Source: a virus
Strand: one strand, 5' to 3'
Virus record (IMG/VR): IMGVR_UViG_3300050016_000116
Location: 1 to 64,000 of that record
Length of the DNA stretch: 64,000 nt
Of the stretch, positions 32,248 to 56,196 are shown in pieces. Within the stretch, counting starts at the first letter, position 1; the number at the start of each line of letters is the position of its first letter. The notes under the pieces are model-generated. The model was not told the DNA's origin, did not search any database, and saw only the letters and a program-made list of their open reading frames with translations. The position numbers were made by a program, and so were the translations under genes.

Positions 32248-32745
32248 ATGAGGAAGCGCTCAGGAGCCTCTCAGACGTGTCCGGACCCCTCTGAGGCTTC
32301 GGACCCCCATACCACCCCCCAAGACGCGTCTGAGTGGCAGCAGGGAGCAGACGCGAGGGATTCGAAAAGCGCTTTTCGAATGCGCTTCATCCCGACGAAG
32401 GACGCGAAGACGTTTCTTACGATCGGTCCCGAGGGTGATGATTGGACAGGGGAAGACTATCCGGAGTGCGAGTTCATTCCAGCGACTTTTGTTCGGTTGC
32501 GACCTCCTCCCGGAGTGACTCAGGACTACATCGAGCGGATGCGCAAAGGAGCAGAGAAAGCTGGAGCGGTGGTGAAGTACCTCCCCGCGACAGAGGCAGC
32601 GGTGGTCACCGACCAAGCTGCACCCGTCACCGATGCGAAGAGCATCCGGGAGACGGTCTCGCAGCTCGTGGAGGAAGCGCGAACCTCTGACCGAGAAGCG
32701 CTCTCAGCGCTGGTTGAATCCACTCTCGCCAAGGTGTCCCTATGA
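32248..32745 (+). CDS. Probable C-terminal (capping) part of the SbcD-like protein as a separate ORF
   Basis: Same frame as the upstream gene after a single TAG; RFIPT..FLTI..FVRL; alternative start 32380. Confidence 0.55.
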   Translation: MRKRSGASQTCPDPSEASDPHTTPQDASEWQQGADARDSKSAFRMRFIPTKDAKTFLTIGPEGDDWTGEDYPECEFIPATFVRLRPPPGVTQDYIERMRKGAEKAGAVVKYLPATEAAVVTDQAAPVTDAKSIRETVSQLVEEARTSDREALSALVESTLAKVSL

Positions 32746-33167
32746 GACCGAGCTTCCGATCCATCTACATGAACCTTGCTTCCAACATGAGCGAGCGGTC
32801 GACTTGCGCCAGGCTCCACGTGGGCTGCGTCATCTCCTCCCCGGACTTCCGGCGCATCTACGCAGTCGGGTACAACGGGAACGCATCCGGGACGAGGAAC
32901 GAGTGTGACCTCACGGGGGAGGCTGCGGTGGGCAACTGCGGGTGCCTCCACGCGGAGGAGAACGCGATCATCAACTGCGACACACCGCGCGAGCGGGAGA
33001 AGATCGTGTTTTGCACGAACCTCCCATGCCTCATGTGCGCCAAGAGGCTCATCAACCTCGGAGGAGTCCGCGACGTCTACTTCAAGGAGGACTATCGGAA
33101 GAAGGAAGGGCAGGAGCTTCTGACCCGGGTGGGGATCCGAGTCGTCCAGTTCGCTGGTGACTCCTGA
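32742..33167 (+). CDS. dCMP deaminase
   Basis: RSTCARLHVG, GYNG, HAEENA, PCLMC. Confidence 0.92.
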   Translation: MRPSFRSIYMNLASNMSERSTCARLHVGCVISSPDFRRIYAVGYNGNASGTRNECDLTGEAAVGNCGCLHAEENAIINCDTPREREKIVFCTNLPCLMCAKRLINLGGVRDVYFKEDYRKKEGQELLTRVGIRVVQFAGDS

Positions 33168-35083
33168 TGTGGATCAAGAAGTTGCGACTCCACAACTGGA
33201 TGTCCTTCCGCGGGGAGATGGTGCTGGACCTTGAGCCCAAGATCTACGCTCTCTCTGCGCGCCACGTGAAGGACCCAGGGCGTTCCAACTTCCTCGGCAA
33301 GTCAGCTCTCCTGGAAGCAATCTTCTTCGCGCTCACCGGCAAGCTCAACCCGGATCGGCATCTCGGGGCAGACGGGTGGGTGTCGGATGGGGAGAAGGAA
33401 GGAGCCGTCTCTATCGTCTTCAACGACGGGAAGGAGATCCGACGCGAGCGCAAGAAGACCACGCAGATCTACTTCGACAAGGCGAAGGGGGACGAAGCGC
33501 AAGCGCTCATTGACGGGTTTGTGGGGCTCACCCCAGAGGACTTCCTGGCTACCTGCTACTTCCAGCAACGCCAGATGGCCCGGTTGGTACTCGCAGATCC
33601 GGGGGAGCGGATGAAGTACGTGCGCGCCTGGTTTCAGCTCGAACCTCTCGAACGAGGGGAGGAGATGCTGCGCGATGAGGCGGCACGTCTTGCTGCGGAG
33701 ATCGAGCAGTGCAACGCGAGCATCCGGAGCACCACCGAGGTAGAAGCACGCGAGGGAACACTGGAGGGGCTGAAGGAGGTTCTTCTCCAACTAGAGCGCG
33801 ATCTGGAGATCGTTATCGACAGGGAGGCGCGACTCACAACGCTCGTGCGCGAGAACGATGACCGGATGCGCGCCAAGGGGAGGGTGAAGGAGCACGAGGA
33901 GATCAAGCGGGAGATCGCAGAGCTTGAGACCCAGATGGAGCAGATGGCGTCACACACTGCTGCCATGATGCTCACTGAGGCACGCGAGGTCGCGACGAAG
34001 GCTCACACCAAGTTCTCTGACGTTCACCGTCAGCTTGAACAGAAGAAGAAGCTTTCCCTCAAGCAGTTCGATGGGCACTGTCCGGTGGGGGAGATGAAGT
34101 GCCCGGTCACGAAGGAACTCAACTCCCAGACTGCCCACAACGCGAAGCTGGTCACCGAGGTCGAGAAGGAGCTGGCAGTGGCCCGGGAAGATCTCGATGA
34201 CGCGAAGTCATCCGAGCGGAGTGCCGACTTGAAGATGCAGAGTGTGGAGCGGATACGAACCCGCATTGAGGAGCTTCAGAATCGGGAAGTGAAGCTCTCG
34301 ATTCTCATCTCTGAGGTCGACCCAATCCCCCCTGCGGATCCCGAAGATCTCCAAGCACGTCTCTCCAGAGCTTCTCAACAGGTTGGGGACAAACGTTCTG
34401 CGTTTCGTCTCCGCCAAGAGGGACTTGGACTTGTGGAGAACGCACGAGCGCAACGGGAGAAGTACACCGCGAAGAAGGAAGGCTACGAGAAGCAGCTCCA
34501 GACACACCGGGAAGCGATCGTCATCTTCGGCAAGCAGGGAGCCCAGCGACGAGTGGCGGAGCCCGCTCTCAGGGAGATCCAGAACGGGGGCAACGCGATG
34601 CTCCAGGAGTGCTCCATTCCTCTCGACTTCGAGATCTCCTGGTCTCGGGAGGGAGCGGGACCGGCGAAGACGTGTGACGCCTGCGGCTCCCCTTTCCCAG
34701 CTTCTCGTGCGGTGAAGGAGTGCTCCCGGTGCAAGACACCCAGAGGTCAGCTCCTCGTGAACAAGCTGGACCTCATCCTCTCCGAGCAGTCAGGCGCAGC
34801 AGAAGACCTCATCGGCGCTAGTATCCAGTTTGCTGCGTCAGCTTGGCTCCGGAGACGTCGCGGTAGCTTCTGGTCGACAGCGCTCCTGGACGAGCCAGCG
34901 GGGCAGTTGGACGAGACGCACCGCGCTGCGTTCGCATCCCATCTCGCGGCGCTCCTCGGGACTCGCTACGGGTTCGAGCAAGCGATCGTCACCGCGCACC
35001 ACCGCTCATTCCTCGATGTGCTCCCAGGCAAGATCGAGATTCTGCACGACGGCAAACGAGCGACAGCGAGGGTCGTCATATGA
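33167..35083 (+). CDS. SbcC/Rad50-like ATPase
   Basis: KLRLHNWMSF, SNFLGKS, zinc-hook-like CPVGEMKC, SGAAEDL signature, LLDEP, TAHH. Confidence 0.88.
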   Translation: MWIKKLRLHNWMSFRGEMVLDLEPKIYALSARHVKDPGRSNFLGKSALLEAIFFALTGKLNPDRHLGADGWVSDGEKEGAVSIVFNDGKEIRRERKKTTQIYFDKAKGDEAQALIDGFVGLTPEDFLATCYFQQRQMARLVLADPGERMKYVRAWFQLEPLERGEEMLRDEAARLAAEIEQCNASIRSTTEVEAREGTLEGLKEVLLQLERDLEIVIDREARLTTLVRENDDRMRAKGRVKEHEEIKREIAELETQMEQMASHTAAMMLTEAREVATKAHTKFSDVHRQLEQKKKLSLKQFDGHCPVGEMKCPVTKELNSQTAHNAKLVTEVEKELAVAREDLDDAKSSERSADLKMQSVERIRTRIEELQNREVKLSILISEVDPIPPADPEDLQARLSRASQQVGDKRSAFRLRQEGLGLVENARAQREKYTAKKEGYEKQLQTHREAIVIFGKQGAQRRVAEPALREIQNGGNAMLQECSIPLDFEISWSREGAGPAKTCDACGSPFPASRAVKECSRCKTPRGQLLVNKLDLILSEQSGAAEDLIGASIQFAASAWLRRRRGSFWSTALLDEPAGQLDETHRAAFASHLAALLGTRYGFEQAIVTAHHRSFLDVLPGKIEILHDGKRATARVVI

Positions 35084-35652
35084 GGAAGCGTGTTGCTCCC
35101 ATCCGGGCAGAACAACCGATGCCCAATGGCGGACTCGCGACGATCGGGTTGGACCTCTCGCTCAGGCGCTCTGCCTTCTGCGTCATCCCGTCAACGTGGA
35201 GCCCGGGGGATTGGGAGCGACTTCACACGGGAGTCGTCCAGCCAGAAGGAGATGGGATTCTCCGCATCGCAGCGATCATTGAGTCGTTTTCAATGGTCGT
35301 AGATGGGGTCTATCGAGGGGAGTTGGTCAAGCACGTCTTCATCGAGCAGTACGCGTGGAGCGCGATGGGCAGTTCGTCCAAGCAGCACGAGATCATGGAG
35401 ATGGGGGGAGCGCTCAAGCTGAGGCTCTATCAGAAGTTCGGGCTGTTCACGACATCGTTCAATGCGTCTTCTGCGCGCAAGACTCTCTTCGGCAAGCTCC
35501 CGAGGATGAAGCGAGCGGAGTGGAAGAAGTTCGTGGTTCACCAGCTTCAGAAGATGGGAGCCCCATGGGATGATGACGACACGTGCGATGCGTTCGTGAT
35601 CGCGAACCACGGGCGCGGTGAGCTTGGACTCCCGGTGCTCTCCGTGGGGTGA
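35080..35652 (+). CDS. RuvC-like Holliday junction resolvase
   Basis: IGLDLSL, VFIEQY, DDTCDAFVIA. Confidence 0.8.
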   Translation: MRKRVAPIRAEQPMPNGGLATIGLDLSLRRSAFCVIPSTWSPGDWERLHTGVVQPEGDGILRIAAIIESFSMVVDGVYRGELVKHVFIEQYAWSAMGSSSKQHEIMEMGGALKLRLYQKFGLFTTSFNASSARKTLFGKLPRMKRAEWKKFVVHQLQKMGAPWDDDDTCDAFVIANHGRGELGLPVLSVG

Positions 35653-35689
35653 AGGTTCGTGGTAGGTTCTCGGTTCTCTGGAGGCGCAC

Positions 35690-36385
35690 ATGAGGAAGAG
35701 GGAAGAGAAGAAGGTCACGGAAGGACCGAGGTTCACGGGAGCCCTTCCCACGCTCACGGCGCTCCCGGTCGTGAAGCCGAATACGTGGAACCCGTTCGCG
35801 ATGACCCCCTTCATGCGGGAGTCTCTCAAGCACGGGCTCCAGACGGATGGGTGGCTCTCTTCCCAATCACTTCTCATCTGGGCGTCTGACGAGAAGGGGA
35901 AGAGCAAGAACATCATCATCGACGGTGAGCACCGCTGGACGGTGGCTCTGGAGCTGGGCTTCAAGGAAGGTCCGATGGTCTTCCTGCATAAGATCACCGA
36001 GGCCGAGGCGAAGAAGCTCACTGCGGCGCTGAACAACAAGCACGGGCGTCCGGACGATGACAAGATGGGTGCTCTGCTCCGCTCCATCCAGTCCGAGGAG
36101 GCACCGACTTCGCTGGACGTCGGTATCGAGAATGACCAGCTGATGAAGCTCCTCGCAGAGCCCAAGATCCCGATGAAGGATCCGGACGGACCGGGTGCCA
36201 ACGGGAAGCCGGAGTCCCACGATCCTCTCCCTGCGTCCAACGCGAGGATGGTGCAGCTCTACTTCGTGAAGGAGACCCACGAGGAGTTCACGAAGCTCAC
36301 GCGTGCGCTCGCAGAGAGGTACAACGTGAAGAACACAACCGACGCTGTTCTCGAAGCGTGCCGCCAGGCTTACAAGAAGAAGTAG
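35690..36385 (+). CDS. ParB/Srx-like protein
   Basis: PNTWNP, IIIDGEHRW, LNNKHG. Confidence 0.85.
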   Translation: MRKREEKKVTEGPRFTGALPTLTALPVVKPNTWNPFAMTPFMRESLKHGLQTDGWLSSQSLLIWASDEKGKSKNIIIDGEHRWTVALELGFKEGPMVFLHKITEAEAKKLTAALNNKHGRPDDDKMGALLRSIQSEEAPTSLDVGIENDQLMKLLAEPKIPMKDPDGPGANGKPESHDPLPASNARMVQLYFVKETHEEFTKLTRALAERYNVKNTTDAVLEACRQAYKKK

Positions 36386-36389
36386 CCAC

Positions 36390-37265
36390 GTGCTCGTCCA
36401 GCTTCGCTCCCAGGCTTCCGCAGACGAGGTCAAGAAGCTCATCGCTTCCCGACCCGCACCCGAGCACGCGTCCCTCTTCCTCACGCAAGAGGCGACGATC
36501 TACAAGCCGAACGGGGACCGACTTCTGACGCTCGTGCGAGGGGGCATCTCCGAGAAGACCGCGGAGAGAGCGCGACCCTTCTATCACTCCCTCCACACTG
36601 TCATGACTCGCAATCGCGGTGCCTACGCTGGCGCCAGAAGGGCTCGCCCGGTCAGGAGCAACGGTACCCTGTCCAACACCTTTGAGACCGTCCCGGTGCG
36701 TTCCTGCATCCTCGGAGCTATGGATCGCTACCCTCGCAATCCCTTCTGCCGGCAGGCAGCGATCGTCGGGCAAGATCCTGAGGGATGGGAGATCGGACAG
36801 GAGCTTGTGCGGGAGGTCTCAGACGTCTTCAAGAGCCACTACCCCGAGCGGTTCCTCATCCAGCAGGCAATCGCAGAGACCACCCACAAGGACTACATCA
36901 TCAAGGGCACCCCCTTCACGACCATCACCGTGAACAACACGGTTCCTGCGGCCTATCACCGCGACGCTGGCGACTTCAAGCCGGGCTTCGGGGTCATGAC
37001 GGTTCTTCGGCGTGGCATCTACCGAGGGTGTGAGTTGGTCCTCCCTGCGTTCGGCGTGGCAGTCGACCTCCAGGACCGGGACGTCATCCTGTTCGATGTC
37101 CACGAGGTCCACGCCAATCTCCCTTTCATCGCGACGCAGGGGAAAGAGGTGGAGGATTGGGAAAGGATTAGCATAGTAGCGTATTATAGAGAACGAATGA
37201 TAGATTGCCTTCCACCTCGGGAAGAGGTTGAGAGGGCGAATAATCTACATGGGACGGTTCGATGA
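36390..37265 (+). CDS. 2OG-Fe(II) dioxygenase, TET/JBP (5-methylpyrimidine dioxygenase)-like
   Basis: FTTITVN..AYHRDAGD (HxD), LFDVHEVHAN (distal His), RISIVAYYRE. Confidence 0.85.
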   Translation: MLVQLRSQASADEVKKLIASRPAPEHASLFLTQEATIYKPNGDRLLTLVRGGISEKTAERARPFYHSLHTVMTRNRGAYAGARRARPVRSNGTLSNTFETVPVRSCILGAMDRYPRNPFCRQAAIVGQDPEGWEIGQELVREVSDVFKSHYPERFLIQQAIAETTHKDYIIKGTPFTTITVNNTVPAAYHRDAGDFKPGFGVMTVLRRGIYRGCELVLPAFGVAVDLQDRDVILFDVHEVHANLPFIATQGKEVEDWERISIVAYYRERMIDCLPPREEVERANNLHGTVR

Positions 37266-37306
37266 TCCCGCTGAGTTTTGGAGGAACGTAAAGAAGCGGT
37301 CTGGAA

Positions 37307-38227
37307 GTGATGAGACAACGGCCATTCTTGGGTGCATCTGGGTCGTTAGATGACGACTTCAAGACGTTCGCCAAGGCGCAGATCAAGACAGGAGACCTTG
37401 ACCCGACCTACTGGCTCCTGAAGCGAGCCTACGCGCGGGAAGGTCTTACGAAGGACATCGCTCTCTGGCGCACGCTTCTCTACGTGACTTGGTACCACCT
37501 CGGGTCATCGGAGAAGATGTGGACCCTTTTCCGATTCCCTCAGAAGATCCGTGAGCAGTTCGTGAAGGGACTCTCCACGGGAACGGAGCGAAGAGGGTTC
37601 AGGGGGAACGTCAACGCGGCTGCGTTCATCAACGACGTCCTGAACCGTGCTGCTACTTGCGGGGGAACTCTTCACGGGTGGATTGAACGAGTCGCAGGAG
37701 GGCACCTCTGGGCTTTTGGATGGAACAACATTCAGGTTGAGCTGATGATGGTGAAGAACGCAGGACCGTGGGCGAGCTACAAGTGGGCTGACCTTCTCAA
37801 GAACGTTCACAACTACGACATCACTGCGCCCGATCTCGGAGTCGGAGGAGGGAGCGCGACAGCGGGACCTATCCCGGGGATGGTTCGGCTCACTGGCAAG
37901 GACTGGAAGCAGTGCGCAACGGACATAGGACTTCAGTGCGCGCTTCTCGATCGCTACGTGGCGGAGGGTGTTCCCTTCTCGGGTCTCGACCAGTTGGAGA
38001 CGGCGCTCTGCGACTTCAACTCGCTCTGCAAGGGCGGGTACTACGTGGGGCACGACATCGACGGGATGATGAGTAATCTGCCTCCGAACAGTCCTCTCTG
38101 GCTCTCCCGAGACGTCTTCACCGAGTCAGTGCGCGGTGAGCGCCAAGGGTGGAACGGGGTTCGGAAGGAGCGGAAGAGCGTCTACAAGAACACGGGGCGA
38201 ATCATCCTCCCTTGGGAGCAGATGTGA
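37307..38227 (+). CDS. aGPT-Pplase clade 2 / amino acid:DNA transferase-like
   Basis: GDLDPTY, TGTERRGFRG, GPWASYKWAD, GPIPG, LETALCDF..GGYYVGHDI. Confidence 0.8.
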   Translation: MMRQRPFLGASGSLDDDFKTFAKAQIKTGDLDPTYWLLKRAYAREGLTKDIALWRTLLYVTWYHLGSSEKMWTLFRFPQKIREQFVKGLSTGTERRGFRGNVNAAAFINDVLNRAATCGGTLHGWIERVAGGHLWAFGWNNIQVELMMVKNAGPWASYKWADLLKNVHNYDITAPDLGVGGGSATAGPIPGMVRLTGKDWKQCATDIGLQCALLDRYVAEGVPFSGLDQLETALCDFNSLCKGGYYVGHDIDGMMSNLPPNSPLWLSRDVFTESVRGERQGWNGVRKERKSVYKNTGRIILPWEQM

Positions 38228-39117
38228 TTCACCTTCAGGGCATGGGGGTAGTCGGTTCCCTTCTCGCGTGGCAGCTCCTCCAGCGGAAGGTTCCCTTCAC
38301 GTGGAACGATGCAGAGACCAACATCAACGCGTGGAGCGCCAGCACGGGCTGTATCTATCCTTCGGGAGACCCACTCGACACCATTGCCTACAACGTCTGG
38401 AAGAATTGGGTAGCCAGTCCTCCGTGGAGGGTACCCGGGATGGTCGAGACGTCGGGCTACTGGTTCTGCACGAAGTCAGCTCCCAACGGGTTGAAGGGCG
38501 GGATCGAGGCTCAGGTGGGACCTCTCCGGCGCTCCACCTTCCCTGCGATGAACTTCAACGCGCAGGCGTTCGTGGCCATGACCAGGAAGATGTTCGCGAT
38601 GAAGCGGCTCACGTACTCAGCACCACGCGCAAAGAAGGTCGTGGTCACGCACGGATTCGGGGAGCGGCTTCACCACTACGTCTGGGGTTGGCATCGGAAG
38701 GTGAGGCTTCGCTTCCACGAGGACTTGGTCAACGCGGAGTTCTGCAAGCGCATGACCATCTCCCTCACGCGCGGGCGGTTCGTCATGGCGTACGCCTATC
38801 CCATGCCTGGCTATCCTGAGTGGTACTACGCGGGTTCTGACCGGGTGGTGCAGAAGACCGCCAAGGAGCTTGAGGTGCTCCCGAAGTATGAGGCGTGGCG
38901 CCGCAACTTCACGTCACTCTCGGGTGGGTTGATCGAGATCATGGAGGAGGGGGGAATCGCGCAGGGGTGGAGACCCGCAGGTCGTCCTGACGATGATGCG
39001 ATGGTCATGGAACTCACTGGACGGTTCGGGTCAGTGTTGGTCAAGCCTCAACGAGGGAACGGGGTTCGGCACGCTCCTCTGGTCTGTCGAGCGGTGATGA
39101 CAGCGTTGGGCTTCTGA
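38224..39117 (+). CDS. FAD-dependent oxidoreductase
   Basis: N-terminal GMGVVGSLLAWQL (GxGxxG), AWSASTG, GWRP, GNGVRHAP. Confidence 0.75.
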   Translation: MIHLQGMGVVGSLLAWQLLQRKVPFTWNDAETNINAWSASTGCIYPSGDPLDTIAYNVWKNWVASPPWRVPGMVETSGYWFCTKSAPNGLKGGIEAQVGPLRRSTFPAMNFNAQAFVAMTRKMFAMKRLTYSAPRAKKVVVTHGFGERLHHYVWGWHRKVRLRFHEDLVNAEFCKRMTISLTRGRFVMAYAYPMPGYPEWYYAGSDRVVQKTAKELEVLPKYEAWRRNFTSLSGGLIEIMEEGGIAQGWRPAGRPDDDAMVMELTGRFGSVLVKPQRGNGVRHAPLVCRAVMTALGF

Positions 39118-39132
39118 CGGCACTCTCGGGGG

Positions 39133-39657
39133 ATGAACATGATCCTCTACGTTGTCGGTGCGCCTGGATGCGGGAAGACCACCCTGGTTCGTCGACTCCT
39201 GGAAGCGGACAACTACTTCAACGTTCGACCGAAGTGGACGATCGGGAACGGGCAGAAGGTCTGCGCAGCGGGGCACTATACGGGTGGAACGTTTGATGGA
39301 GCCGACACGGTTCCGTACAACGGGTTTCAGCTGGCGCTCGACTTCTGGAAGGCGAACCTCATCAACTTCGAGCTGACGATCTTCGATGGGGATCGCTTCA
39401 GCGACAAGCGCACGATCGAGTTCTTCCAGTCTCAACCCGTCCACCAGCGGGTGATTCACTGCATCGCATCTGCGCAGCTCCTCGCAGAGCGCCGGCAGGA
39501 GCGAGGTTCGACTCAGAACCCCTCGTGGATGAAGGGACGGGAGACGAAGTCTGAGCGCTTTGCCACTGACCTCTTCTCACCCGAGGACAACCGACTCATT
39601 CTCCAGATGCACGAGAAGCCGGAGAACTTGGAGCGGAAGGTGCGGAAGTGGCTCTGA
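39133..39657 (+). CDS. P-loop kinase (5-hmU DNA kinase-like)
   Basis: VVGAPGCGKTT, GHY...FDGADT, IFDGDR, RRQERGSTQNPSWMKGRETK. Confidence 0.78.
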   Translation: MNMILYVVGAPGCGKTTLVRRLLEADNYFNVRPKWTIGNGQKVCAAGHYTGGTFDGADTVPYNGFQLALDFWKANLINFELTIFDGDRFSDKRTIEFFQSQPVHQRVIHCIASAQLLAERRQERGSTQNPSWMKGRETKSERFATDLFSPEDNRLILQMHEKPENLERKVRKWL

Positions 39658-40061
39658 CCCCTTTCGCCCGATGGTGGCGGAAGGTCCGAGAATCACTTCA
39701 GGCGCGGTACTACGAGGGGCCACACCCTCCACGCAGGCTCAATGAGATCGTCCTAGCGTTTGCCAACGAGCACCCCGCAGCCACACGTCTGGAGTGGGTG
39801 ACGTTCGCGATCGAGCACGCACGGGAGACCTACCGAACGGGATGGGTGCGGGGAATGGAGTACACCGAGCGGTCTCCCGAGGAGCGCACGGCAATTCGCA
39901 CCGCCGATCCCGATGCAGCCGCGGACATGCTTGATCCGGACTGGAAGTGGCAGCCAGCGATCAACCTGGAGTACGACCCTCACGCGGTCCCCATTGCGCA
40001 GCCAGGGGAACGTGAAGCGATCGAGAGAATGTTCACGAAACCGAAGGAGAAGAAGACATGA
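39648..40061 (+). CDS. Hypothetical protein
   Basis: Overlapping 137 aa ORF. Confidence 0.6.
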   Translation: MALTPFARWWRKVRESLQARYYEGPHPPRRLNEIVLAFANEHPAATRLEWVTFAIEHARETYRTGWVRGMEYTERSPEERTAIRTADPDAAADMLDPDWKWQPAINLEYDPHAVPIAQPGEREAIERMFTKPKEKKT

Positions 40062-40486
40062 CCGAAGAGACGAAGTGGGATCCGCAGTCGCTCCTGGGCA
40101 AGTTCGTGCTCTATGTGCCGGCGAAGTTCATCGGGAGGGTCACCGACTTCTTCGATGGGACTACGAAGAAGTTCACTTCCCCCATCAACAACCAGCAAGT
40201 GAAGGGTCCTGTTCTCCAGATCGATGGGCAGCACCATCTCGTCGCAGTCGAGTCCTCGTTCATCGAGCTTCAGGAGGGGGAGGCAGCGTTCTTCGCTGCG
40301 GTCCAGCAGGCGCTCACCGGAGCGCTCGCAGAGGTCGTGAAGATCGGGGCGGAGATGAAGATCCCCCCTCCGACCCTCGCACTCCTCCTCGTAGCCACAC
40401 TGCGGACGCAGGGCATGGCTTTGGAGGCATTCCACAAGAACGATCTCCCCCAGCAGGCACCTCCCGAGACGGCATTCCAGGGGTAA
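40058..40486 (+). CDS. Hypothetical protein
   Basis: AAGGAG RBS, 142 aa. Confidence 0.65.
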   Translation: MTEETKWDPQSLLGKFVLYVPAKFIGRVTDFFDGTTKKFTSPINNQQVKGPVLQIDGQHHLVAVESSFIELQEGEAAFFAAVQQALTGALAEVVKIGAEMKIPPPTLALLLVATLRTQGMALEAFHKNDLPQQAPPETAFQG

Positions 40487-40525
40487 GGCGCGATTCGAAA
40501 AGCGCTTTTCGAATGGAGACCGACC

Positions 40526-40774
40526 ATGGCAGACCTTCCCCCGCAGAACCCAGGCTTGACCTCCAACGCGGCTCACAACGCGGCTGCTGCGCTCGTGGAG
40601 ATGTACCGGGGCATCCTCGTGGACAACGAGCGGGAGAAGCAACTGCTGCGGATCCGGTTGCTGCGTCTGGAGGACGAGATCAAGAACATCAGGACTCTCT
40701 ACGCGAACGTGGTGGGTGTGCAGCCGAAGGTGAGTGTCGCTGACCCGCTACCCGAGGAACCGGAGCACGACTGA
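40526..40774 (+). CDS. Hypothetical coiled-coil protein
   Basis: GGAG RBS just after palindrome 40493-40514. Confidence 0.6.
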   Translation: MADLPPQNPGLTSNAAHNAAAALVEMYRGILVDNEREKQLLRIRLLRLEDEIKNIRTLYANVVGVQPKVSVADPLPEEPEHD

Positions 40775-41133
40775 TGCGCGGCTTCCTCTCCAAGACGTTC
40801 CAGGAACAGCTCCGGGTCTTCGACCAGGAGAAGGGGATCGATCATCGCCTGGACTTCTGGGTGGAGCAGTTCGGGGGTGGAGCCGGGGCTTGGCTCCTCT
40901 GGAACTATCGCAAGCAGATCCACAACGCGGGTGCGGTCGACTTCCAGATCCCCAGGGAGATCCCCACACCTAACTGGATGCGAGTTGCACTTGAGGCGAT
41001 CAAGAGACTCCCTTACTGGTCCGTGAATATCGTTGGAGGAACGAAGGACCCCATGAGGCGCTTCCGAGTTCGCTGGCATCGTCACGGTCACTTCAAACGC
41101 AAGCCGTCCCTACCCCCGGAGCAACTCTCATGA
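40774..41133 (+). CDS. Hypothetical protein
   Basis: Coupled 119 aa ORF. Confidence 0.55.
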   Translation: MRGFLSKTFQEQLRVFDQEKGIDHRLDFWVEQFGGGAGAWLLWNYRKQIHNAGAVDFQIPREIPTPNWMRVALEAIKRLPYWSVNIVGGTKDPMRRFRVRWHRHGHFKRKPSLPPEQLS

Positions 41134-42731
41134 CAATGGTGAATTATTCGGTTCTTGATCACGGCTACTTGGGACTAGTGGAGAGCTGGGGGAGTGACGA
41201 GCGCATCGTGGAGGCGGCGCGCATGTCGACGGGCAAGGGTTTCCTAGGGTGGGGGCCGAGCACCGTTTGCCAGTGTGGTCGGGAGGTCACTGAAGCCAAC
41301 GCGCTTGATCATCGCGAGTGCGGCTCACCCACGAAGTTCACGACGAGCCCCGGTGACGAGAAGCTCCTTCGCTACCTCTGGGAGAACAAGCACGCGACGC
41401 CATTCGAGATGGCGGGGATGACGATCGAGGTGCAGGCGCCCATCTTCGTCTTCCGGGAGTGGCACCGGCACCGAACGCAATGCCTCGTCGGCGAGACGAT
41501 GATCGCTTGCGTCTCGCCGAATGGCACGACCTATCAGCGCAGCATCAAGAACATCTTCGACCTCAAGTACGGTGGTGTCGAAGACACGCAACCGCGAACG
41601 AGGAACGGGACGAGCCGGGGTGGCACGCCCGTCAGACGAGAGGCGCGGCGGGTGGTCCCGTGGCGCAAGCGTGTTCTGCCCAACTGCCAGGCGCGCGCTC
41701 TCCGCGTGCTCAACGAGACGACGGGAGAGTTCGAGACAGCGCCGATGGCCGACGTTTGGGAGTCGGGCACGAAGCCCGTCTTCTGCGTGAAGACTGAGAC
41801 CGGGCGCACCGTCGAGGCGAGCGCTGAGCACCCGTTCTTCACGCGCGACGGCTGGAAGAAGCTCAAGGAGCTTCGCGTCGGCGATTCGCTTGCTCGCATC
41901 GGCGTCGTCGCTACGCGTGAGCGACCGCTCCCTCCGGCGCTCCGGGCCGGCATCGGCGTGTGGACATCGATGATGAGGGCTCGCCTCATTCGGCAGCCGA
42001 CGGACTTTTGTTATCTCTGCGAGACGGAGTTCAAGTTCTCGATCCTCGAACTCGACCACGTCGTGCCGGTGTCGGCGGACCTGTTGCGGGCGCTCGACGC
42101 GACGAACCTCCGCCCCATCTGCCCGCGATGCCACAAGAACAAGAGCGCTGCGGAGCAGCCCTCACGGGAGGGGATGACTCGCCGAGGCGTACGGTGGGAG
42201 CGCGTCGTCGAGGTCCGCGAAGTCGGCGACGCGCCTACCTACGACATCGAGGTCGACGGGCCGCACCACAACTTCGTCGCCAACGGGCTAGTGGTCCACA
42301 ACAGCTACAACGAGATGAGCAGTCGCTACATGCCGCTACCGGACGTGAACTACATCCCGAGTGTTGAGAGGTTGATGCTCAATTCGAAGACGAACAAGCA
42401 GGCGGGGACGGTAAAGGGCTCGGAGGAGATGACTGAGCCGAAGGCTGGGGCGGTGCGTCATGCGCTGTCGCTCCTCTACGGGGACCAGCAGCGTGCATAT
42501 GAGGAGTTCCTCAAGTGGGGCGTCCCGAAGGAGCTAGCCCGCGTCCACCTTCCCGTGGGTCGCTACTCGCGGATGCGCGCGAGCGCGAACCTGCGCAACT
42601 GGCTCGCGTTCCTCACGCTCCGGATGGACGAGAAAGCTCAGTGGGAGATCCGTCAGTACGCGAATGTAGTGGGGGAGATCATCTCTGCACAATTCCCGCG
42701 TACGTGGGCACTCTTCTCTGAGAAGCGCTGA
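41130..42731 (+). CDS. thyX: Flavin-dependent thymidylate synthase with intein
   Basis: AARMS, HATPFEM, PIFVFREWHRHRTQ|SYNEMSSRY, KELARVHLP, NLRNW..LR..AQWEIR. Confidence 0.95.
   Translation: MTMVNYSVLDHGYLGLVESWGSDERIVEAARMSTGKGFLGWGPSTVCQCGREVTEANALDHRECGSPTKFTTSPGDEKLLRYLWENKHATPFEMAGMTIEVQAPIFVFREWHRHRTQCLVGETMIACVSPNGTTYQRSIKNIFDLKYGGVEDTQPRTRNGTSRGGTPVRREARRVVPWRKRVLPNCQARALRVLNETTGEFETAPMADVWESGTKPVFCVKTETGRTVEASAEHPFFTRDGWKKLKELRVGDSLARIGVVATRERPLPPALRAGIGVWTSMMRARLIRQPTDFCYLCETEFKFSILELDHVVPVSADLLRALDATNLRPICPRCHKNKSAAEQPSREGMTRRGVRWERVVEVREVGDAPTYDIEVDGPHHNFVANGLVVHNSYNEMSSRYMPLPDVNYIPSVERLMLNSKTNKQAGTVKGSEEMTEPKAGAVRHALSLLYGDQQRAYEEFLKWGVPKELARVHLPVGRYSRMRASANLRNWLAFLTLRMDEKAQWEIRQYANVVGEIISAQFPRTWALFSEKR
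41481..42302 (+). mobile_element. Intein with in-frame HNH endonuclease in thyX
   Basis: CLVGET, ASAEHPFFT, CYLC..LDHVVP..NLRPICPRCH, TYDIEV..VVHN|S. Confidence 0.93.
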
Positions 42732-43537
42732 TGCGCGAGGTCATCATTGTTCCCCCAGAGAACTCGGCGCGAAAGGGGCGATCGTTCCGCGCAGTCTGTC
42801 TTGCGACGATTGAAGCGGACACACTCTGGGGGGAGACCATCACTGACGACACGCGCCCGGTGCTTGCGGTGTTCGCGGGTTCGGACCAGGAGATGCGTCC
42901 CTTCCAGGCGAACCTGCGAATGGGGAGGAAGGCGAACATCATCAACGCGGGCAGGAACTCCTACCGGAAGAAGACAGACCGGATGGAGTTCCTGCGGTCA
43001 GTCGATTACGAGTACACGTGGCAGCGGGAAGCAGAGGGATCGATCCTCACCGTGCGGCTCTCGGAGCTATTCATGCTCGACCCGGGGATGGTCGACCCAT
43101 GGGGCGCCAAGTTCATCGTCCTCCCCTCCTCCACGTGGGCAGCAGAGCAGACGATCGATCCCACTCCCGCGGTGATGCACGTGCGAGGTCTTGGGTTCAA
43201 GGGTATCGAGCATGAACAGCTCACTGCTCTCGTGCCTCTTGCCGCTCTCTTCGCGGTATATCTCGACCGGCGCACGCGTTGTCCAATCGTCATGGACGAA
43301 CGGTTCTACCTCCAGCTCTTCTGCGCCAGTCTCGGGCAAGGACTCGCATCGTTCGCGTGGGACGGGAGGTACAGCGAGGACTTCGGGGTGAACAAGTCGT
43401 TCAAGTTCTCGCAGGACACGGACGACGTTGGGTGCTTCGCGAAGGGTGTCGCGTTCAAGGCGAACCACGAGCAGATTGAGACCCTTCTCGCAGAGCAAAC
43501 CACCTACTTCTTCGAGGCTACTCATGGCGCGTCCTGA
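42731..43537 (+). CDS. Hypothetical protein coupled to the MTase-helicase
   Basis: 268 aa, overlaps the next gene. Confidence 0.65.
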   Translation: MREVIIVPPENSARKGRSFRAVCLATIEADTLWGETITDDTRPVLAVFAGSDQEMRPFQANLRMGRKANIINAGRNSYRKKTDRMEFLRSVDYEYTWQREAEGSILTVRLSELFMLDPGMVDPWGAKFIVLPSSTWAAEQTIDPTPAVMHVRGLGFKGIEHEQLTALVPLAALFAVYLDRRTRCPIVMDERFYLQLFCASLGQGLASFAWDGRYSEDFGVNKSFKFSQDTDDVGCFAKGVAFKANHEQIETLLAEQTTYFFEATHGAS

Positions 43538-46500
43538 ATCGCAGGCATTTGCCGGGTTCTTCCCGACACCACTGCATCTCCTCCCGCGCATCGCACGTCT
43601 GCTCTCTCCCAGGAGAGAGGAAGGTGCTGAGACATCGATTCTTGATCCCTGCGCGGGGGAGGGTCATGCGGTCGTGGAGCTGGCGAAGTACCTCTGCAAG
43701 CGCAGTCCGAACATCTTCGTGTGTGAGATGGAGTTCACGCGCTACGAAGCGCTTGAGAAGACACTCAGAGGAGTCGGGTGCTGGAAGAACGTTCTCCACG
43801 GAGACGCATTCCGGGTCACGTTCAAGAAGGGGAGCAATGAGGGGGTCTCTGTTCTCTACCTGAACCCTCCCTACGACACGCACCCGGTCTACGGACGGTT
43901 GGAGCACAAGTTCCTGGAGAGGTTCACCGACACCCTCAAGGATGGTGGGATTCTCTTCTACGTGGTTCCGTACTACTCCCTCAAGGCATCGGCGGACTTC
44001 TTCGCCTCACGATTCTCTGAGCTGCACTGCTACAAGTTCCCGGGCTCCGACTTTGAGGCGTTCAAGCAAGTTGTCTTGGTCGGGCAGAAGGGAAGTGGAC
44101 TATTCGGGGAGAGCAACAAGAAGCTGCGCCAAGACGTGCTCACGTGGGCGGAGGACCCGGAGCGAATCCAGAAGCTCCCAGCGATCCCGGAGCCGCTCTG
44201 GGAGGTCCCTTCTTCCCCGCGGTACCACGATGGGTTGGAGGAGTGGATCATCCGCCCGGTCGACATCACGGCGCTCACGAAGAAGGTGCGCCCATGGATG
44301 CAGTCAGCTCGGAATGGAGCGCTCATCCCCATCCCGGGGATCGTTCCCGATCTCCCGGTCCAAGAGATGCTCCTGCGCCAGTACCCCGTAGCGACCCCTC
44401 CTAGACCCGCGCACATCGCGGCAGGCATCGCATCAGGCATCTTCAACGGAGCCCGTCTGAAGCCATCCTACCGCGAAAGAAGGGCACTCCCGGCTCTCCT
44501 CGTGAAGGGGTGCTTTGACAAGGAGTACCGGACGGTGGAGGAGAAGAAGGACAAGAACGGGAACACCAAGGGTCTCGTTCAGGTTCAGCAGCCGAAGCTG
44601 GTCACCACCGTGCTCGACCTCTCAACGTTCCGCTACCACGTGCTCAAGAGTGGTGTGGAGCCCTGTAAGGGTATCCCCAAGGTCGAGACGATGAGCGTGG
44701 CAGACCTCATCGAGCACTATGGGGACTCGATGACGGGGGTGATGGGGGTGCAGTGCCCGGTGCTCTACGACCCGAGAAGGGACGCGGACTCCATCCCCAT
44801 CCCGGAGACACCCAGGAAGCTCTTCAACGCCCAAGCGCACGCGGTTCGAGCGCTGGTGAAGCTTCTCGGAGGACCATCATCGACGAAGAGGAAGCGAAGG
44901 GGGAAGGCAGCGATCCTCCTGGGGGAGATTGGGGTAGGCAAGAGCACGGTCGCAGCAATGGCAGCAGAGACCATCAAGGCGAAGCGCATCCTCATCATGT
45001 GCCCACCTCACCTCTTGACCTCGTGGACGAACGAGTGCGCGGCAGTGCTCCCGCACGCAGAGGTGGTCGTCCTCAACAATGTGGAGGACGTGGACGCGCT
45101 CGTTTCGAGGAAGCAGCGGAGGGGGACGACCAAGCGCACGATCGTCACGCTCCTCACACGCGAGACAGCGAAGCTATCGCACTCCCGGGAAGGAGTTGGG
45201 GGAACTTGCCCGAAGTGCGGGTCATCCCTTCCCTTCGACCCCGAGGATCTTGCGAAGAAGCGGGAGCGCTGCGAGCACATCCCCAAGACACCCTCCAACA
45301 AGCTCGCAGAGATCTCCATCCGACTTGGCTATCGGCTCCTCCCGTTCTCGGGGGACGTGGCTGCATACTTCGGTGGGTTCTTCGACAAGCAGCGCGCGAA
45401 TGCCTACGACTCGATGGAGAAGCGGCCGCAATTCCGAGGGCTCACCCTCGGGGAGCTGGATGACGCGCTCGTGGAGCTTCTCATGCTTCTCCCGCAGTCT
45501 CTCGACAGCGAGACGCGTACCAAGGTCGAGAATGCGATCGTGGTCATCCTCCATGCAGCGGGAGACGAGGAGCGCACGTTGAAGACAGCGGCAATCGTCG
45601 CTGCGAACAACAACTCATGGACCCACTTCGAGCAGGACTTGCTCCTCTTGCTTCCTCCTGGCGATCCGCGGGTAGCGCAGTTCATCAAGGAAGTGAAGGA
45701 AGCTGAGAAGCCCAAGAGCTACGGCGGTGACGTTTGGCACGCGTTCGAACAGCGAGTGCAGGATTCGAAGGAGGGGAAGGCAAAGGCAGGTTCGATCGAT
45801 GTCTCCTGGGCATCGGGGGAGCTGATGCTGCACTCGAAGTGCAAGCGCGGGTCTCTCGAAGCAGCACGTGCAGCGTTCATTGGGATTCGGGTTTTCTCCA
45901 CCTTCGAGGATGGTGAGCCGTGCGGGGAGTTCCTCTTCCAGGCAGTTCCGACCCCGAGACGTGTTGCGCTCTCTTCCTACATCACGAAGTACCACCCGGA
46001 GCTGTTCGACTTCCTCGTGCTCGACGAAGGACACGAGTACAGCTCTGACTCCAGCGCGCAGAGCTTCGCTGCCCACCGTCTCACCGCACTCGGGCTCCCC
46101 ACGATCTTGATGACCGGGACGATCATGAACGGGTACGCAGAGAGCTTGTTCACGAACCTCTGGGCGCTCTCCCCCGCGTTTCGTTCGGAGTTCGATCGCA
46201 ACGAGCGCCAGCGGTTCATCGACCGCTACGGGTATCGCAAGCGAATCGTGGAGGACCGGGACAAGGAGACCAAACAAGTGGTCGAGTTCGGTTCGCAGTC
46301 GGATCGAGTGGTCCGCTCAGAGCGGGTTGTCGGCAATGCTCCCGGGCTCCTCCCGCTCTTCCTCCTGCGCCACCTTCTCCCCATCTCCGTCACGCTCCAC
46401 AAGACGGACTTGGCGATCGATCTCCCTCCCCTGCGTCAGGAGAGGTTCCGCGTGAAGCCGACAATCAAGCAGCACCAGTTCTACGACCAGCTCAAGGATG

Positions 46501-47485: not shown

Positions 47486-47895
47486 AGCGGGTCCCGGTCG
47501 ACTTCCGTTACGATGCGGTGAACCCGGACTTCCTTCTGGCGCTCGCGAAGATCGGATCGTACGCGTCGGAAAAGTACGGGAGCTGGTCGCAATACACCGG
47601 AGCACGTCTCCTCGGAGATAAGGATCCCGTCAATCACATCTACGAACACCTCCGGCAGTACCAGATGAACGAGGGGTACGATCACTTTGACGGAGACGTG
47701 CGCTGGCATCTCGTCGCGGTCGCTTACAATGCCATGATGAGCTTCTGGTACCACTCGAAGTGGGGCGCGCTTCGTCACCCCCTCGACCTCAAGGAGGATT
47801 CGAAAAGCGCTTTTCGAACCGGGGAGGTTCGCTCCGTTCCCGGCATCCGCATCTACGAGTTTCCAGGGGAAAAGAAGCCCTCCAAGAAAAAGTAA
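47482..47895 (+). CDS. dATP/dGTP diphosphohydrolase-like (DUF5664-like)
   Basis: RYDAV..LAKIGSYASEKYG..HL..E.YD...HLVAVAYNAMM. Confidence 0.65.
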   Translation: MKRVPVDFRYDAVNPDFLLALAKIGSYASEKYGSWSQYTGARLLGDKDPVNHIYEHLRQYQMNEGYDHFDGDVRWHLVAVAYNAMMSFWYHSKWGALRHPLDLKEDSKSAFRTGEVRSVPGIRIYEFPGEKKPSKKK

Positions 47896-56141: not shown

Positions 56142-56196
56142 TGGCCCCGGCGCTTTCACTCTTGTGCGCGGGCGGCGAGAGGGTGACGTGGCGATC

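What the first reader, a model, noticed from the sequence alone, without database searches (positions are those of the whole stretch)
35690..39657. Pyrimidine hypermodification operon using a TET/JBP-like dioxygenase rather than a dUMP hydroxymethylase
Seen: contiguous ParB-like, TET/JBP-like 2OG-Fe(II) dioxygenase, aGPT-Pplase2-like transferase, FAD oxidoreductase and P-loop kinase genes, with dCMP deaminase and ThyX nearby and no ThyA-like hydroxymethylase in the window. Known: in phages such as M6, ViI and PaMx11, 5-hmU made at the nucleotide level is phosphorylated in DNA by a kinase and substituted by an amino acid:DNA transferase, and PaMx11 uses a flavin-dependent enzyme for further tailoring. 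Inference: here ordinary T (from ThyX) is oxidised post-replicatively to 5-hmU, then phosphorylated, amino-acid-substituted and FAD-processed. This would be a wholly DNA-level and possibly site-restricted route to a modified base. No acetyltransferase was recognised, so the end product may differ from known ones.
Basis: partly seen in the sequence, partly recalled or inferred. Interest (0 to 1): 0.76.

Follow-up and report, generated by a model that had tools for sequence, protein, structure and literature searches.

The report
Phage thymine hypermodification cassette, TET-started
An uncultured 100-kb peat-soil phage carries five tightly packed genes that most likely oxidise thymine in its finished DNA and rebuild it into an amino-bearing base; this pathway type is already published, so it is a new member of a known kind.

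Summary
All five genes lie where stated, on one strand: a ParB-like protein, a TET/JBP dioxygenase with an intact HxD..H/Arg site, an amino acid:DNA transferase (AADT), a flavoprotein and a P-loop kinase. The fourth gene has no Pfam or PHROG match. Its AlphaFold model (pLDDT 94) is a full D-amino-acid/glycine oxidase fold (Z 22-23; MnmC FAD domain Z 20). dCMP deaminase and an intein-bearing ThyX are nearby. The complete 99.6-kb genome has no ThyA-type hydroxymethylase, C5-methyltransferase or GNAT.

Lee et al. (NAR 2022) described TET_JBP replacing the hydroxymethylase. O'Toole et al. (PNAS 2026) showed that ParB-dependent phage TET/JBP enzymes make 5hmU in DNA and sit beside kinases and AADTs. 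The same five genes are annotated in Gordonia and Rhodococcus phages. This scan's notes hold 66 similar findings in at least 58 genomes.

Added here:
- The flavoprotein family (about 215 clusters) sits next to an AADT in 23 of 25 related loci (gene calling failed in the other two).
- It occurs with either TET or a ThyA-like hydroxymethylase, never both.
- It exists fused to a GNAT or a kinase.

The likely end base is non-acetylated 5-aminomethyl-dU (about 40%).

The parts
35690..36385 (+). ParB-like protein (231 aa), the presumed activator of the adjacent dioxygenase. It has a ParB/Srx nucleotide-binding domain, a short helical remnant, a disordered linker and a two-helix C-terminal domain.
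   Evidence: phrog_723 E 2.8e-16. 98 homologs, several carrying PF02195. Invariant DGEHR-type motif. Family profile vs PDB ParB/Noc/Spo0J at 3e-5. AF2 model pLDDT 89; Foldseek to Noc/ParB/KorB at 3e-6. ParB and TET homologs share many contig lengths and are adjacent in 8 related loci.
36390..37265 (+). TET/JBP-family Fe(II)/2-oxoglutarate dioxygenase (291 aa), predicted to oxidise thymine in DNA to 5-hydroxymethyluracil.
   Evidence: PF12851 E 4.9e-23. Invariant H190-x-D192, H241 and R259 across 40 homologs, plus a conserved C-terminal extension after near-invariant C273. Family profile aligns the HRD, distal His and Arg motifs to human TET2.
37307..38227 (+). Amino acid:DNA transferase (AADT, formerly aGPT-Pplase2; 306 aa), predicted to replace the phosphate on 5-phosphomethyl-uracil with an amino acid, probably glycine.
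   Evidence: PF18724 27.5 bits against a cut-off of 26.2. phrog_6364 E 1e-21. PDB 25qc_A 'Amino acid:DNA transferase' at 8.4e-6, with the DLDPxY and GPW motifs aligned. PaMx11 gp46 at E 1e-4. 32-35% identity to the gp3/gp6 'aGPT-Pplase2' proteins of actinophages.
38224..39117 (+). Short (297 aa) DAO-fold flavoprotein of an unannotated family (alignment A1). [quoted passage not shown]
   Evidence: No Pfam or PHROG hit. Invariant GxGxxG, D29 and the GWRP motif. AF2 pLDDT 94.2. Foldseek to D-amino-acid, glycine, sarcosine and iminodiacetate oxidases at 3e-14 to 1e-9. VIA Z 22-23, rmsd 3.0-3.5 A over 273-278 residues; MnmC FAD domain Z 20.4. Adjacent to an AADT in 23 of 25 loci, the other two being gene-calling failures. 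Natural fusions to a GNAT and to a P-loop kinase.
39133..39657 (+). P-loop kinase (174 aa), predicted 5-hmU DNA kinase.
   Evidence: PF18751 Ploopntkinase3 E 3.4e-9, 36.9 bits against a cut-off of 27. Walker A GAPGCGKT. Same Pfam family as Gordonia phage Wooper gp4, annotated '5-hmU DNA kinase'. Weak hit from a PaMx11-gp49-type kinase profile, E 0.0016.
39117..39125 (+). One copy of the over-represented 9-mer ACGGCACTC, lying between the stop of the flavoprotein gene and the kinase ATG (7 nt upstream of it). Possibly a phage-specific regulatory signal inside the cassette.
   Evidence: 15 copies in the window against 0.83 expected; sequence context. Function not tested.
32742..33167 (+). dCMP deaminase, an accessory gene that supplies dUMP for dTMP synthesis. 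Not part of the cassette.
   Evidence: PF00383 E 5.9e-18.
41130..42731 (+). ThyX flavin-dependent thymidylate synthase, interrupted by an HNH-type intein. An accessory gene that supplies ordinary dTMP.
   Evidence: PF02511 in two pieces. Thy1 2.9e-36, Intein_splicing 3.7e-17 and HNH 4.1e-8.

Best explanation
The five genes form a post-replicative thymidine hypermodification cassette. None of the steps below was shown for these proteins; each is inferred from homology and context.

(1) The phage replicates with ordinary thymine. dCMP deaminase and ThyX feed dTMP, and no enzyme for a modified nucleotide pool is present.

(2) The TET/JBP dioxygenase, activated by the adjacent ParB-like protein, oxidises a sequence-selected subset of thymines in double-stranded DNA to 5-hydroxymethyluracil. 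It uses Fe(II), 2-oxoglutarate and O2. This reaction has been shown for other ParB-dependent members, not for this protein.

(3) The P-loop kinase phosphorylates the new hydroxyl group.

(4) The amino acid:DNA transferase flips out the base and displaces the phosphate with the amino group of an amino acid, most likely glycine. This gives N-alpha-glycinylthymidine.

(5) The DAO-fold flavoprotein oxidises the glycyl N-C-alpha bond. Hydrolysis then releases glyoxylate and leaves 5-aminomethyl-2'-deoxyuridine.

Because the genome has no acetyltransferase, this primary amine is probably the final base. The probable role is protection from host nucleases. A regulatory or packaging role at specific sites is not excluded.

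Confidence in the pathway as a whole is 0.7. Confidence in glycine and 5-aminomethyl-dU as the end product is about 0.4.
For: Gene arrangement: tight same-strand packing, with a 4-nt gap, a 4-nt GTGA overlap and a 15-nt gap.

Absences in the whole genome: no ThyA-family gene, no C5-methyltransferase, no GNAT and no HMUDK_hel.

Flavoprotein fold: pLDDT 94; Z 22-23 to glycine oxidase, CmiS2 and iminodiacetate oxidase; Z 20.4 to the MnmC FAD domain. All of these cleave glycine or N-carboxymethyl amines.

Census of 25 IMG/VR loci holding the flavoprotein family:
- An AADT is adjacent in 23; in the other two my gene picker dropped one of two overlapping calls.
- 10 loci carry TET (8 with ParB next to it) and no ThyA-like gene.
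- 11 loci are PaMx11-like, with a gp46-like AADT, a gp49-like kinase, HMUDK_hel and a gp51-like ThyA homolog, and no TET.
TET and the hydroxymethylase are therefore interchangeable sources of the same intermediate.

Natural fusions: flavoprotein+GNAT (P0247) mirrors PaMx11 gp47+gp48, and flavoprotein+P-loop kinase also exists (P0338).

A MAFFT alignment places the invariant GWRP Arg250 under the GIRP Arg242 of PaMx11 gp47. PMC11472151 proposes that Arg242 binds the glycyl carboxylate.

Literature:
- The kinase, AADT, FAD lyase and acetyltransferase steps were reconstituted for PaMx11 (PMC8989533) and the first two enzymes after the kinase were solved structurally (PMC11472151).
- ParB-dependent phage TET/JBP enzymes make 5hmU in vivo and in vitro and are linked with kinases and AADTs (PMC13229309).

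The same cassette is annotated in Gordonia phage Wooper gp1-5 and Rhodococcus phage Tonitrus gp1-8 (PMC11955845).
Against: - No biochemical data exist for any protein of this cassette or for the flavoprotein family.
- The AADT clears its Pfam cut-off by only 1.3 bits and is distant from the characterised glycine transferases (E 1e-4 to PaMx11 gp46). Its amino-acid donor is therefore unknown.
- The flavoprotein shows no significant sequence similarity to PaMx11 gp47 beyond the Rossmann N-terminus (hhalign probability 12%) and no PF01266 match. A shared fold does not fix the substrate.
- The kinase belongs to a different Pfam family from the PaMx11-type kinase and lacks its HMUDK_hel partner.
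- Characterised ParB-dependent enzymes also oxidise 5mC in vitro (PMC13229309).
- The record is 'linear' without end repeats, so its completeness is only an estimate.
Confidence: 0.7

Rival explanations
1. The first steps are the same (thymine to 5hmU, phosphorylation, substitution), but the chemistry at the end differs. The transferase may attach something other than glycine, or the flavoprotein may do something other than N-C-alpha cleavage, for example oxidative deamination of another adduct. The final base would then not be 5-aminomethyl-dU. This alternative is nested within the best explanation, not exclusive of it.
For: The window's AADT is only remotely related to the characterised glycine transferases. 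The flavoprotein family has a sharp boundary and no sequence bridge to gp47 or PF01266. Its top structural matches include D-amino-acid and D-aspartate oxidases, whose substrates are not N-substituted glycines. AADTs are known to use serine, glutamate and putrescine (PMC8989533).
Against: The same flavoprotein family sits between close homologs of the glycine transferase gp46 (E down to 1e-99) and the gp49-type kinase in 11 loci. That is exactly the position of gp47. A natural fusion to a GNAT implies a product with a free amine. The candidate carboxylate-binding Arg in the GxRP motif is invariant.
Confidence: 0.3
2. The dioxygenase acts on 5-methylcytosine rather than thymine, and the cassette builds a cytosine hypermodification, as in the phage TET systems of Burke et al. 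2021.
For: Phage TET/JBP clades A and B oxidise 5mC. The characterised thymine dioxygenases also oxidise 5mC in vitro (PMC13229309). The genome encodes several DNA methyltransferases.
Against: No C5-cytosine methyltransferase (PF00145) occurs anywhere in the genome. The methyltransferases present are of the N6/N4 type or DUF6094. The partner kinase and AADT families are known only on 5hmU. In related cassettes TET is replaced by a dUMP hydroxymethylase homolog, not by a cytosine enzyme. An adjacent ParB marks the thymine-oxidising subclass (PMC13229309).
Confidence: 0.05
3. The chemistry is as proposed, but the purpose is not bulk anti-restriction protection. Only a few sequence-defined thymines are marked, serving regulation, packaging or self-recognition.
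For: ParB-dependent enzymes oxidise only a fraction of thymines and show motif preference (NTG/NTA for 5mYOX176). The authors themselves raise an epigenetic-like role (PMC13229309). In actinophages the cassette sits beside the terminase at the genome end. Here a phage-specific motif lies inside the cassette.
Against: Known thymidine hypermodifications block many restriction enzymes (PMC8989533). In this phage the cassette lies among replication and recombination genes, about 14 kb from the terminase. No data exist on the fraction of thymines modified.
Confidence: 0.25
4. The five genes are neighbours by chance and do not work together.
For: None beyond the lack of experiments.
Against: The same set recurs in conserved order in distantly related phages: proteins are 30-55% identical while the rest of the genomes are unrelated. 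Natural gene fusions exist between members.
Confidence: 0.02

Closest known systems
ParB-dependent phage thymine dioxygenases (5mYOX clade C1, e.g. 5mYOX176/ParB176; O'Toole et al., PNAS 2026, PMC13229309)
   Same: A TET/JBP enzyme of about 290 aa with a conserved C-terminal extension. A small ParB-like protein, lacking a full DNA-binding domain, is encoded immediately upstream. No C5-methyltransferase. A P-loop kinase and an AADT lie next door.
   Different: No sequence of the published enzymes was available, so clade membership could not be tested by tree. That paper does not mention FAD enzymes or oxidoreductases in its main text and did not reconstitute any step after 5hmU.
Pseudomonas phage PaMx11 gp46-gp49 pathway to 5-acetylaminomethyl-dU (Lee et al., NAR 2022, PMC8989533; structures of gp46/PUGT and gp47/NGTO, PMC11472151)
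   Same: Same gene order: AADT, short (about 290 aa) two-domain flavoprotein, kinase. Same predicted chemistry up to 5-aminomethyl-dU. The DLDPxY and GPW motifs of the AADT and the GxRP Arg of the flavoprotein are kept.
   Different: 5hmU comes from a DNA-level TET/JBP plus ParB, not from a ThyA-like dUMP hydroxymethylase. There is no acetyltransferase. The flavoprotein belongs to a separate sequence family without a PF01266 match. The kinase is Ploopntkinase3 and has no HMUDK_hel partner.
Actinophage 'five-gene thymine hypermodification system' (Rhodococcus phage Tonitrus gp1-8, PMC11955845; Gordonia phages Wooper, MakoManhole, CaiB gp1-5)
   Same: The same five families, including the gene-4 flavoprotein family (31% identity, E 1e-32 to Wooper gp5).
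   Different: There the order is ParB-TET-AADT-kinase-flavoprotein, at the left genome end next to the terminase. The fifth gene is mostly annotated 'hypothetical'. The TET of this window is closer to that of a marine Pelagibacter phage (45% identity) than to the actinophage ones (about 29%). The phage here is an unrelated 100-kb lineage.
MnmC FAD domain (tRNA cmnm5U to nm5U) and glycine, iminodiacetate and CmiS2 oxidases
   Same: A DAO/GR2 two-domain flavoprotein fold over the whole length. The proposed reaction (oxidation of an N-carboxymethyl amine, release of glyoxylate) is the DNA counterpart of the MnmC reaction.
   Different: 12-16% sequence identity and about 70 residues shorter. The substrate would be a flipped-out base in double-stranded DNA.
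Trypanosome JBP1/2 and base J
   Same: Thymine in DNA is oxidised to 5hmU by a TET/JBP enzyme and then decorated.
   Different: Base J is made by glucosylation. There is no kinase or amino-acid chemistry, no ParB partner, and the setting is eukaryotic.

Membership tests
TET/JBP 5-methylpyrimidine dioxygenases (PF12851) | Match to the family model above the curated cut-off | tested here: met
   81.6 bits against a cut-off of 34.9, E 4.9e-23.
TET/JBP 5-methylpyrimidine dioxygenases (PF12851) | HxD...H iron triad and the 2-oxoglutarate-binding Arg | tested here: met
   H190, D192, H241 and R259 are invariant in 40 homologs and align to the corresponding TET2 motifs.
ParB-dependent thymine dioxygenase subclass (5mYOX clade C1) | Cognate ParB-like gene immediately adjacent | tested here: met
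   The ParB-like gene ends 4 nt before the TET start. The pairing recurs in 8 related loci and in Pelagibacter phage HTVC112P.
ParB-dependent thymine dioxygenase subclass (5mYOX clade C1) | C-terminal extension beyond the last conserved Cys | tested here: inconclusive
   A conserved 'CLSPxEELxRAK'-type tail follows near-invariant C273.
ParB-dependent thymine dioxygenase subclass (5mYOX clade C1) | No C5-cytosine methyltransferase to supply 5mC | tested here: met
   PF00145 is absent from the whole 99.6-kb record.
ParB-dependent thymine dioxygenase subclass (5mYOX clade C1) | Oxidation of thymine to 5hmU in DNA that depends on ParB | not testable with these tools
   Needs expression and nucleoside analysis.
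5mYOX-associated ParB | ParB/Srx nucleotide-binding fold | tested here: met
   Family profile vs ParB/Noc/Spo0J chains at 3e-5. Model vs Noc/ParB/KorB at 3e-6. DGEHR-type motif invariant.
5mYOX-associated ParB | C-terminal domain present; no full helix-turn-helix DNA-binding domain | tested here: met
   The model has only three short helices (residues 123-155) between the N-terminal domain and a disordered linker, then two C-terminal helices at 194-230. This rests on a prediction only.
Amino acid:DNA transferase (PF18724, formerly aGPT-Pplase2) | Match to the family model above the cut-off, and to a solved member | tested here: met
   27.5 bits against a cut-off of 26.2, a narrow margin. PDB 25qc_A at 8.4e-6, with the DLDPxY and GPW motifs aligned. 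gp46 at E 1e-4.
Amino acid:DNA transferase (PF18724, formerly aGPT-Pplase2) | Identity of the amino-acid donor (glycine) | not testable with these tools
   Inferred only from the shared flavoprotein partner in gp46-like loci.
5-hmdU DNA kinase | P-loop kinase of a family found in thymidine hypermodification clusters | tested here: met
   PF18751 at 36.9 bits against a cut-off of 27. Walker A present. Same family as Wooper gp4 and Kozie gp4.
5-hmdU DNA kinase | PaMx11/M6-type organisation with an HMUDK_hel helical-domain partner | tested here: not met
   PF18723 is absent from the genome, although it is present in the PaMx11-like loci. The kinase here is a different type.
DAO-family flavoprotein (PF01266) / PaMx11 gp47 N-alpha-GlyT oxidase | Sequence match to PF01266 or to gp47 | tested here: not met
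   No Pfam hit. hhalign against gp47 aligns only the Rossmann N-terminus, probability 12%. It is therefore not filed as a member by sequence.
DAO-family flavoprotein (PF01266) / PaMx11 gp47 N-alpha-GlyT oxidase | Two-domain DAO/GR2 fold with a dinucleotide-binding motif | tested here: met
   GxGxxG plus D29 invariant. Z 22-23, rmsd 3.0-3.5 A, 273-278 of 297 residues aligned.
DAO-family flavoprotein (PF01266) / PaMx11 gp47 N-alpha-GlyT oxidase | Position between AADT and kinase; product is a free amine that can be acetylated | tested here: met
   Synteny in 11 PaMx11-like loci. Natural fusion with a GNAT. This is indirect evidence.
DAO-family flavoprotein (PF01266) / PaMx11 gp47 N-alpha-GlyT oxidase | FAD binding and cleavage of N-alpha-glycinylthymidine | not testable with these tools
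   Needs purified protein.

The most novel reading that the evidence does not exclude
The cassette ends at free, non-acetylated 5-aminomethyl-2'-deoxyuridine. So far this base is known only as an intermediate of the PaMx11 pathway. It would be installed entirely after replication at sequence-selected thymines, by an unannotated DAO-fold flavoprotein family of about 215 clusters that pairs with AADTs regardless of how 5hmU is made. Alternatively, the flavoprotein performs a different oxidation and the base is one not yet catalogued.
Probability: 0.4. Interest if true: 0.5.

Novelty: new member of a known kind. Interest (0 to 1): 0.3.

Why it matters
Thymidine hypermodifications protect phage DNA from restriction enzymes and are sources of DNA-modifying enzymes for biotechnology. 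This locus adds a well-delimited example in which every step is predicted to occur on the polymer. It also gives a name and a testable function to a flavoprotein family that databases leave blank. The family's complementary distribution (TET or hydroxymethylase, never both) is independent genomic support for the published claim that phage TET/JBP enzymes supply 5hmU. Cultured Gordonia and Rhodococcus phages carry the same genes, so the predicted end base can be checked directly by mass spectrometry. The general concept, however, is already in the literature.

Tried and rejected
- A DNA-level search of the cassette against cultured phages gave only an 81-bp match, so there is no close cultured relative. 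PolB is at most 26% identical to any cultured phage.
- Single-sequence phmmer of the TET protein against PDB found nothing; the family profile was needed.
- The A1 profile against PDB sequences gave only non-significant N-terminal hits (E about 1). BLAST of gene 4 against Phelemich gp4 and Kozie gp3 was not significant, although both are DAO-like by Pfam or by fold.
- PaMx11 gp47/NGTO (8Z2O) did not appear among the 50 listed structural matches. That is not evidence of a different fold.
- No supplementary files of PMC13229309 are held, so 5mYOX176 and its relatives could not be aligned.
- In the four large-phage loci L026, L027, L030 and L031 the source of 5hmU was not found in the flanks. The whole records gave a ThyA-family hit in two and only sub-threshold Tet_JBP hits in two, which is inconclusive.
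- Reads: short contigs identical to parts of the cassette occur in one peat metatranscriptome library and in a permafrost metagenome. Contigs in an RNA library do not show transcription, and uncovered parts mean nothing.
- The promoter/terminator scan found nothing above background.
- Considered and rejected: ThyX as a hidden hydroxymethylase. No such activity is known, and it matches the ordinary Thy1 model.

Full report
**What is there**

The window is the first 64 kb of a 99,644-bp IMG/VR virus record that CheckV rates 100% complete. It has about 61% G+C, and almost all genes are on the + strand.

Five consecutive + strand genes lie at the coordinates of the finding:
- 35690-36385
- 36390-37265
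- 37307-38227
- 38224-39117
- 39133-39657

They are separated by a 4-nt gap, a 41-nt gap, a 4-nt GTGA overlap and a 15-nt gap.

Family assignments:
- **TET/JBP:** Pfam assigns gene 2 to Tet_JBP (E 4.9e-23).
- **AADT:** Pfam assigns gene 3 to the amino acid:DNA transferase family ADDT, the former aGPT-Pplase2 (27.5 bits against a cut-off of 26.2).
- **Kinase:** Pfam assigns gene 5 to Ploopntkinase3 (E 3.4e-9).
- **ParB-like:** PHROGs calls gene 1 ParB-like (2.8e-16).
- **Gene 4:** neither library recognises it.

**Gene 4**

The correct start is GTG 38224. This restores the first beta-strand that homologs share.

Twenty-five homologs, all unnamed, share an invariant GxGxxG, an acidic residue 18 positions later and a GWRP motif.

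The AlphaFold model is confident (pLDDT 94.2, pTM 0.91). It matches the D-amino-acid, glycine, sarcosine and iminodiacetate oxidase fold over its whole length:
- Foldseek E 3e-14 to 1e-9, TM about 0.7.
- VIA Z 22-23, rmsd 3.0-3.5 A, 273-278 residues aligned.
- The FAD domain of the tRNA enzyme MnmC scores Z 20.4.

A profile search of 1.84 billion representatives finds 215 clusters, 196 of them at E <= 1e-30. The family is compact, with a sharp edge and no bridge to the large DAO family.

**The other four proteins**

- **TET/JBP:** its family keeps H190-x-D192, H241 and R259 invariant, and a conserved tail follows a near-invariant Cys. The profile aligns these motifs to human TET2.
- **ParB-like:** its family keeps a DGEHR-type motif, and the profile hits ParB, Noc and Spo0J chains. 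The model (pLDDT 89) shows a ParB N-terminal fold, only three short helices where canonical ParB has its DNA-binding domain, a disordered linker and two C-terminal helices.
- **AADT:** it matches a solved AADT chain (25qc_A, 8.4e-6) with the DLDPxY and GPW motifs aligned. It matches PaMx11 gp46 weakly.
- **Kinase:** it has a normal Walker A motif.

**What is absent**

The whole genome lacks:
- a ThyA-family enzyme;
- a C5-cytosine methyltransferase;
- an HMUDK_hel domain;
- a GNAT acetyltransferase.

An unfiltered six-frame HMM search used profiles built from ten ThyA-like hydroxymethylase homologs, PaMx11 gp48 and a natural GNAT fusion. It also found nothing, and it showed that each cassette gene is single-copy. 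The methyltransferases present are of the N6/N4 type or DUF6094.

The two refuting conditions that could be tested in silico were therefore not met. These were a hydroxymethylase elsewhere in the genome and a source of 5mC.

**Comparative evidence**

Cultured actinophages carry the same set:
- Rhodococcus phage Tonitrus gp1-8.
- Mycobacterium phages Phelemich and Reprobate gp1-5, and Microbacterium phage Kozie gp1-4. These have other short DAO-like flavoproteins at the same position.

A scan of IMG/VR with the gene-4 profile gave 25 loci. I annotated them with profiles of the window proteins and the PaMx11 proteins:
- An AADT is called next to the flavoprotein in 23 of 25 loci. In L011 and L024 my greedy gene picker dropped one of two overlapping calls, but one search shows both genes there.
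- Ten loci have TET and no ThyA-like gene. Eight of these have ParB next to TET.
- Eleven are PaMx11-like: gp46-like AADT, the gene-4 family, gp49-like kinase, HMUDK_hel and a gp51-like ThyA homolog. None has TET.
- In four large-phage loci the source of 5hmU lies outside the flank.
- None has a gp48-like acetyltransferase.

Two natural fusions exist:
- flavoprotein plus GNAT (P0247, PF00583 1.1e-7);
- flavoprotein plus P-loop kinase (P0338).

**Mechanism**

The characterised reference is PaMx11. There a ThyA-like enzyme gives 5-hmdUMP, and gp49 phosphorylates 5hmU in DNA. gp46 then substitutes glycine, and the FAD enzyme gp47 cleaves the glycyl N-C-alpha bond to give 5-aminomethyl-dU. Finally gp48 acetylates it (PMC8989533; structures in PMC11472151).

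Here the first step is replaced by a TET/JBP enzyme with a ParB partner, and the last step is missing.

Three indirect lines argue that gene 4 is a functional counterpart of gp47:
- its position between close gp46 and gp49 homologs in eleven loci;
- its fusion to a GNAT;
- its DAO fold, with an invariant Arg in the GxRP motif that a MAFFT alignment places under gp47 Arg242. Arg242 is the residue proposed to bind the glycyl carboxylate.

I therefore expect non-acetylated 5-aminomethyl-dU as the end base, with about 40% confidence. The pathway as a whole gets about 70%. All steps are inferred for these proteins. The analogous steps were shown only in other phages.

**Comparison with the literature**

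- Lee et al. [quoted passage not shown] They drew the same inference.
- O'Toole et al. 2026 defined ParB-dependent and ParB-independent phage thymine dioxygenases. They showed ParB-dependent 5hmU formation in E. coli and in vitro, with motif preference. They stated that the ParB-dependent subclass is consistently linked with P-loop kinases and AADTs.
- This scan's own notes hold 66 similar findings in at least 58 genomes. One describes the same five-gene set in another genome.

The finding is real and the reading is sound, but it is a new member of a known kind.

**What is new**

- The flavoprotein family is defined here and its fold assigned.
- Its fixed pairing with AADTs is documented.
- TET and the hydroxymethylase show a complementary distribution.
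- The fusions make its function testable.
- 5-aminomethyl-dU, rather than the acetylated form, is predicted as the terminal base.

**Limits**

- The phage has no cultured relative. Identical fragments occur in peat and permafrost data sets.

Noticed in passing
window 41130-42731: ThyX is split by an insert of about 270 aa with Intein_splicing (3.7e-17) and HNH (4.1e-8) domains. It is an intein-bearing thymidylate synthase.
   Followed up: partly
window 28932-31169: A 745-aa RecA. The RecA_C domain lies at residues 675-729 and a LAGLIDADG-like domain at residues 303-350 (21.3 bits, just under the 22.5-bit cut-off). Probably a second intein.
   Followed up: no
window 612-3236: An 874-aa ORF with an Intein_splicing domain at residues 369-646. 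This is the third intein-like insert in the window.
   Followed up: no
window, 15 sites including 12611, 14221, 24176, 39117, 55911, 58651, 60834 and 61888: The 9-mer ACGGCACTC occurs 15 times against 0.83 expected, 13 of them on the + strand, often just upstream of start codons. One copy lies 7 nt before the kinase ATG inside the cassette.
   Followed up: partly
window 43428-47258: A 1276-aa protein that fuses a DUF6094 methyltransferase-like domain to an SNF2/ResIII helicase domain.
   Followed up: no
window 47760-48929, 56164-56964 and 56961-58319: Three ORFs have N6_N4 DNA methylase matches. The last two are adjacent and match complementary halves of the model, so they may be one split or frameshifted gene, or two genes. 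The phage invests heavily in DNA modification beyond the cassette.
   Followed up: no
proteins P0247 and P0338: These are natural fusions of the gene-4 flavoprotein family with a C-terminal GNAT acetyltransferase (456 aa) and with a P-loop kinase (643 aa).
   Followed up: partly
L026, L027, L030 and L031 (IMG/VR contigs of 79-169 kb): The flavoprotein-AADT pair stands in reversed order, downstream of a RecA gene, with no kinase or TET within 8 kb. A dCMP-deaminase-like gene lies about 1.3 kb further downstream. The kinase step and the 5hmU source in these phages are unclear.
   Followed up: partly
L009 (Pelagibacter phage HTVC112P) 4057-6279: The closest cultured-phage TET (45% identity) sits in a ParB-TET-FkbM methyltransferase trio with no kinase or AADT. 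This suggests a different downstream chemistry on 5hmU.
   Followed up: no
window 35000-41200: Short contigs identical to the cassette occur in a permafrost metagenome of another study and in a peat metatranscriptome library. The habitat is peat or permafrost soil.
   Followed up: partly
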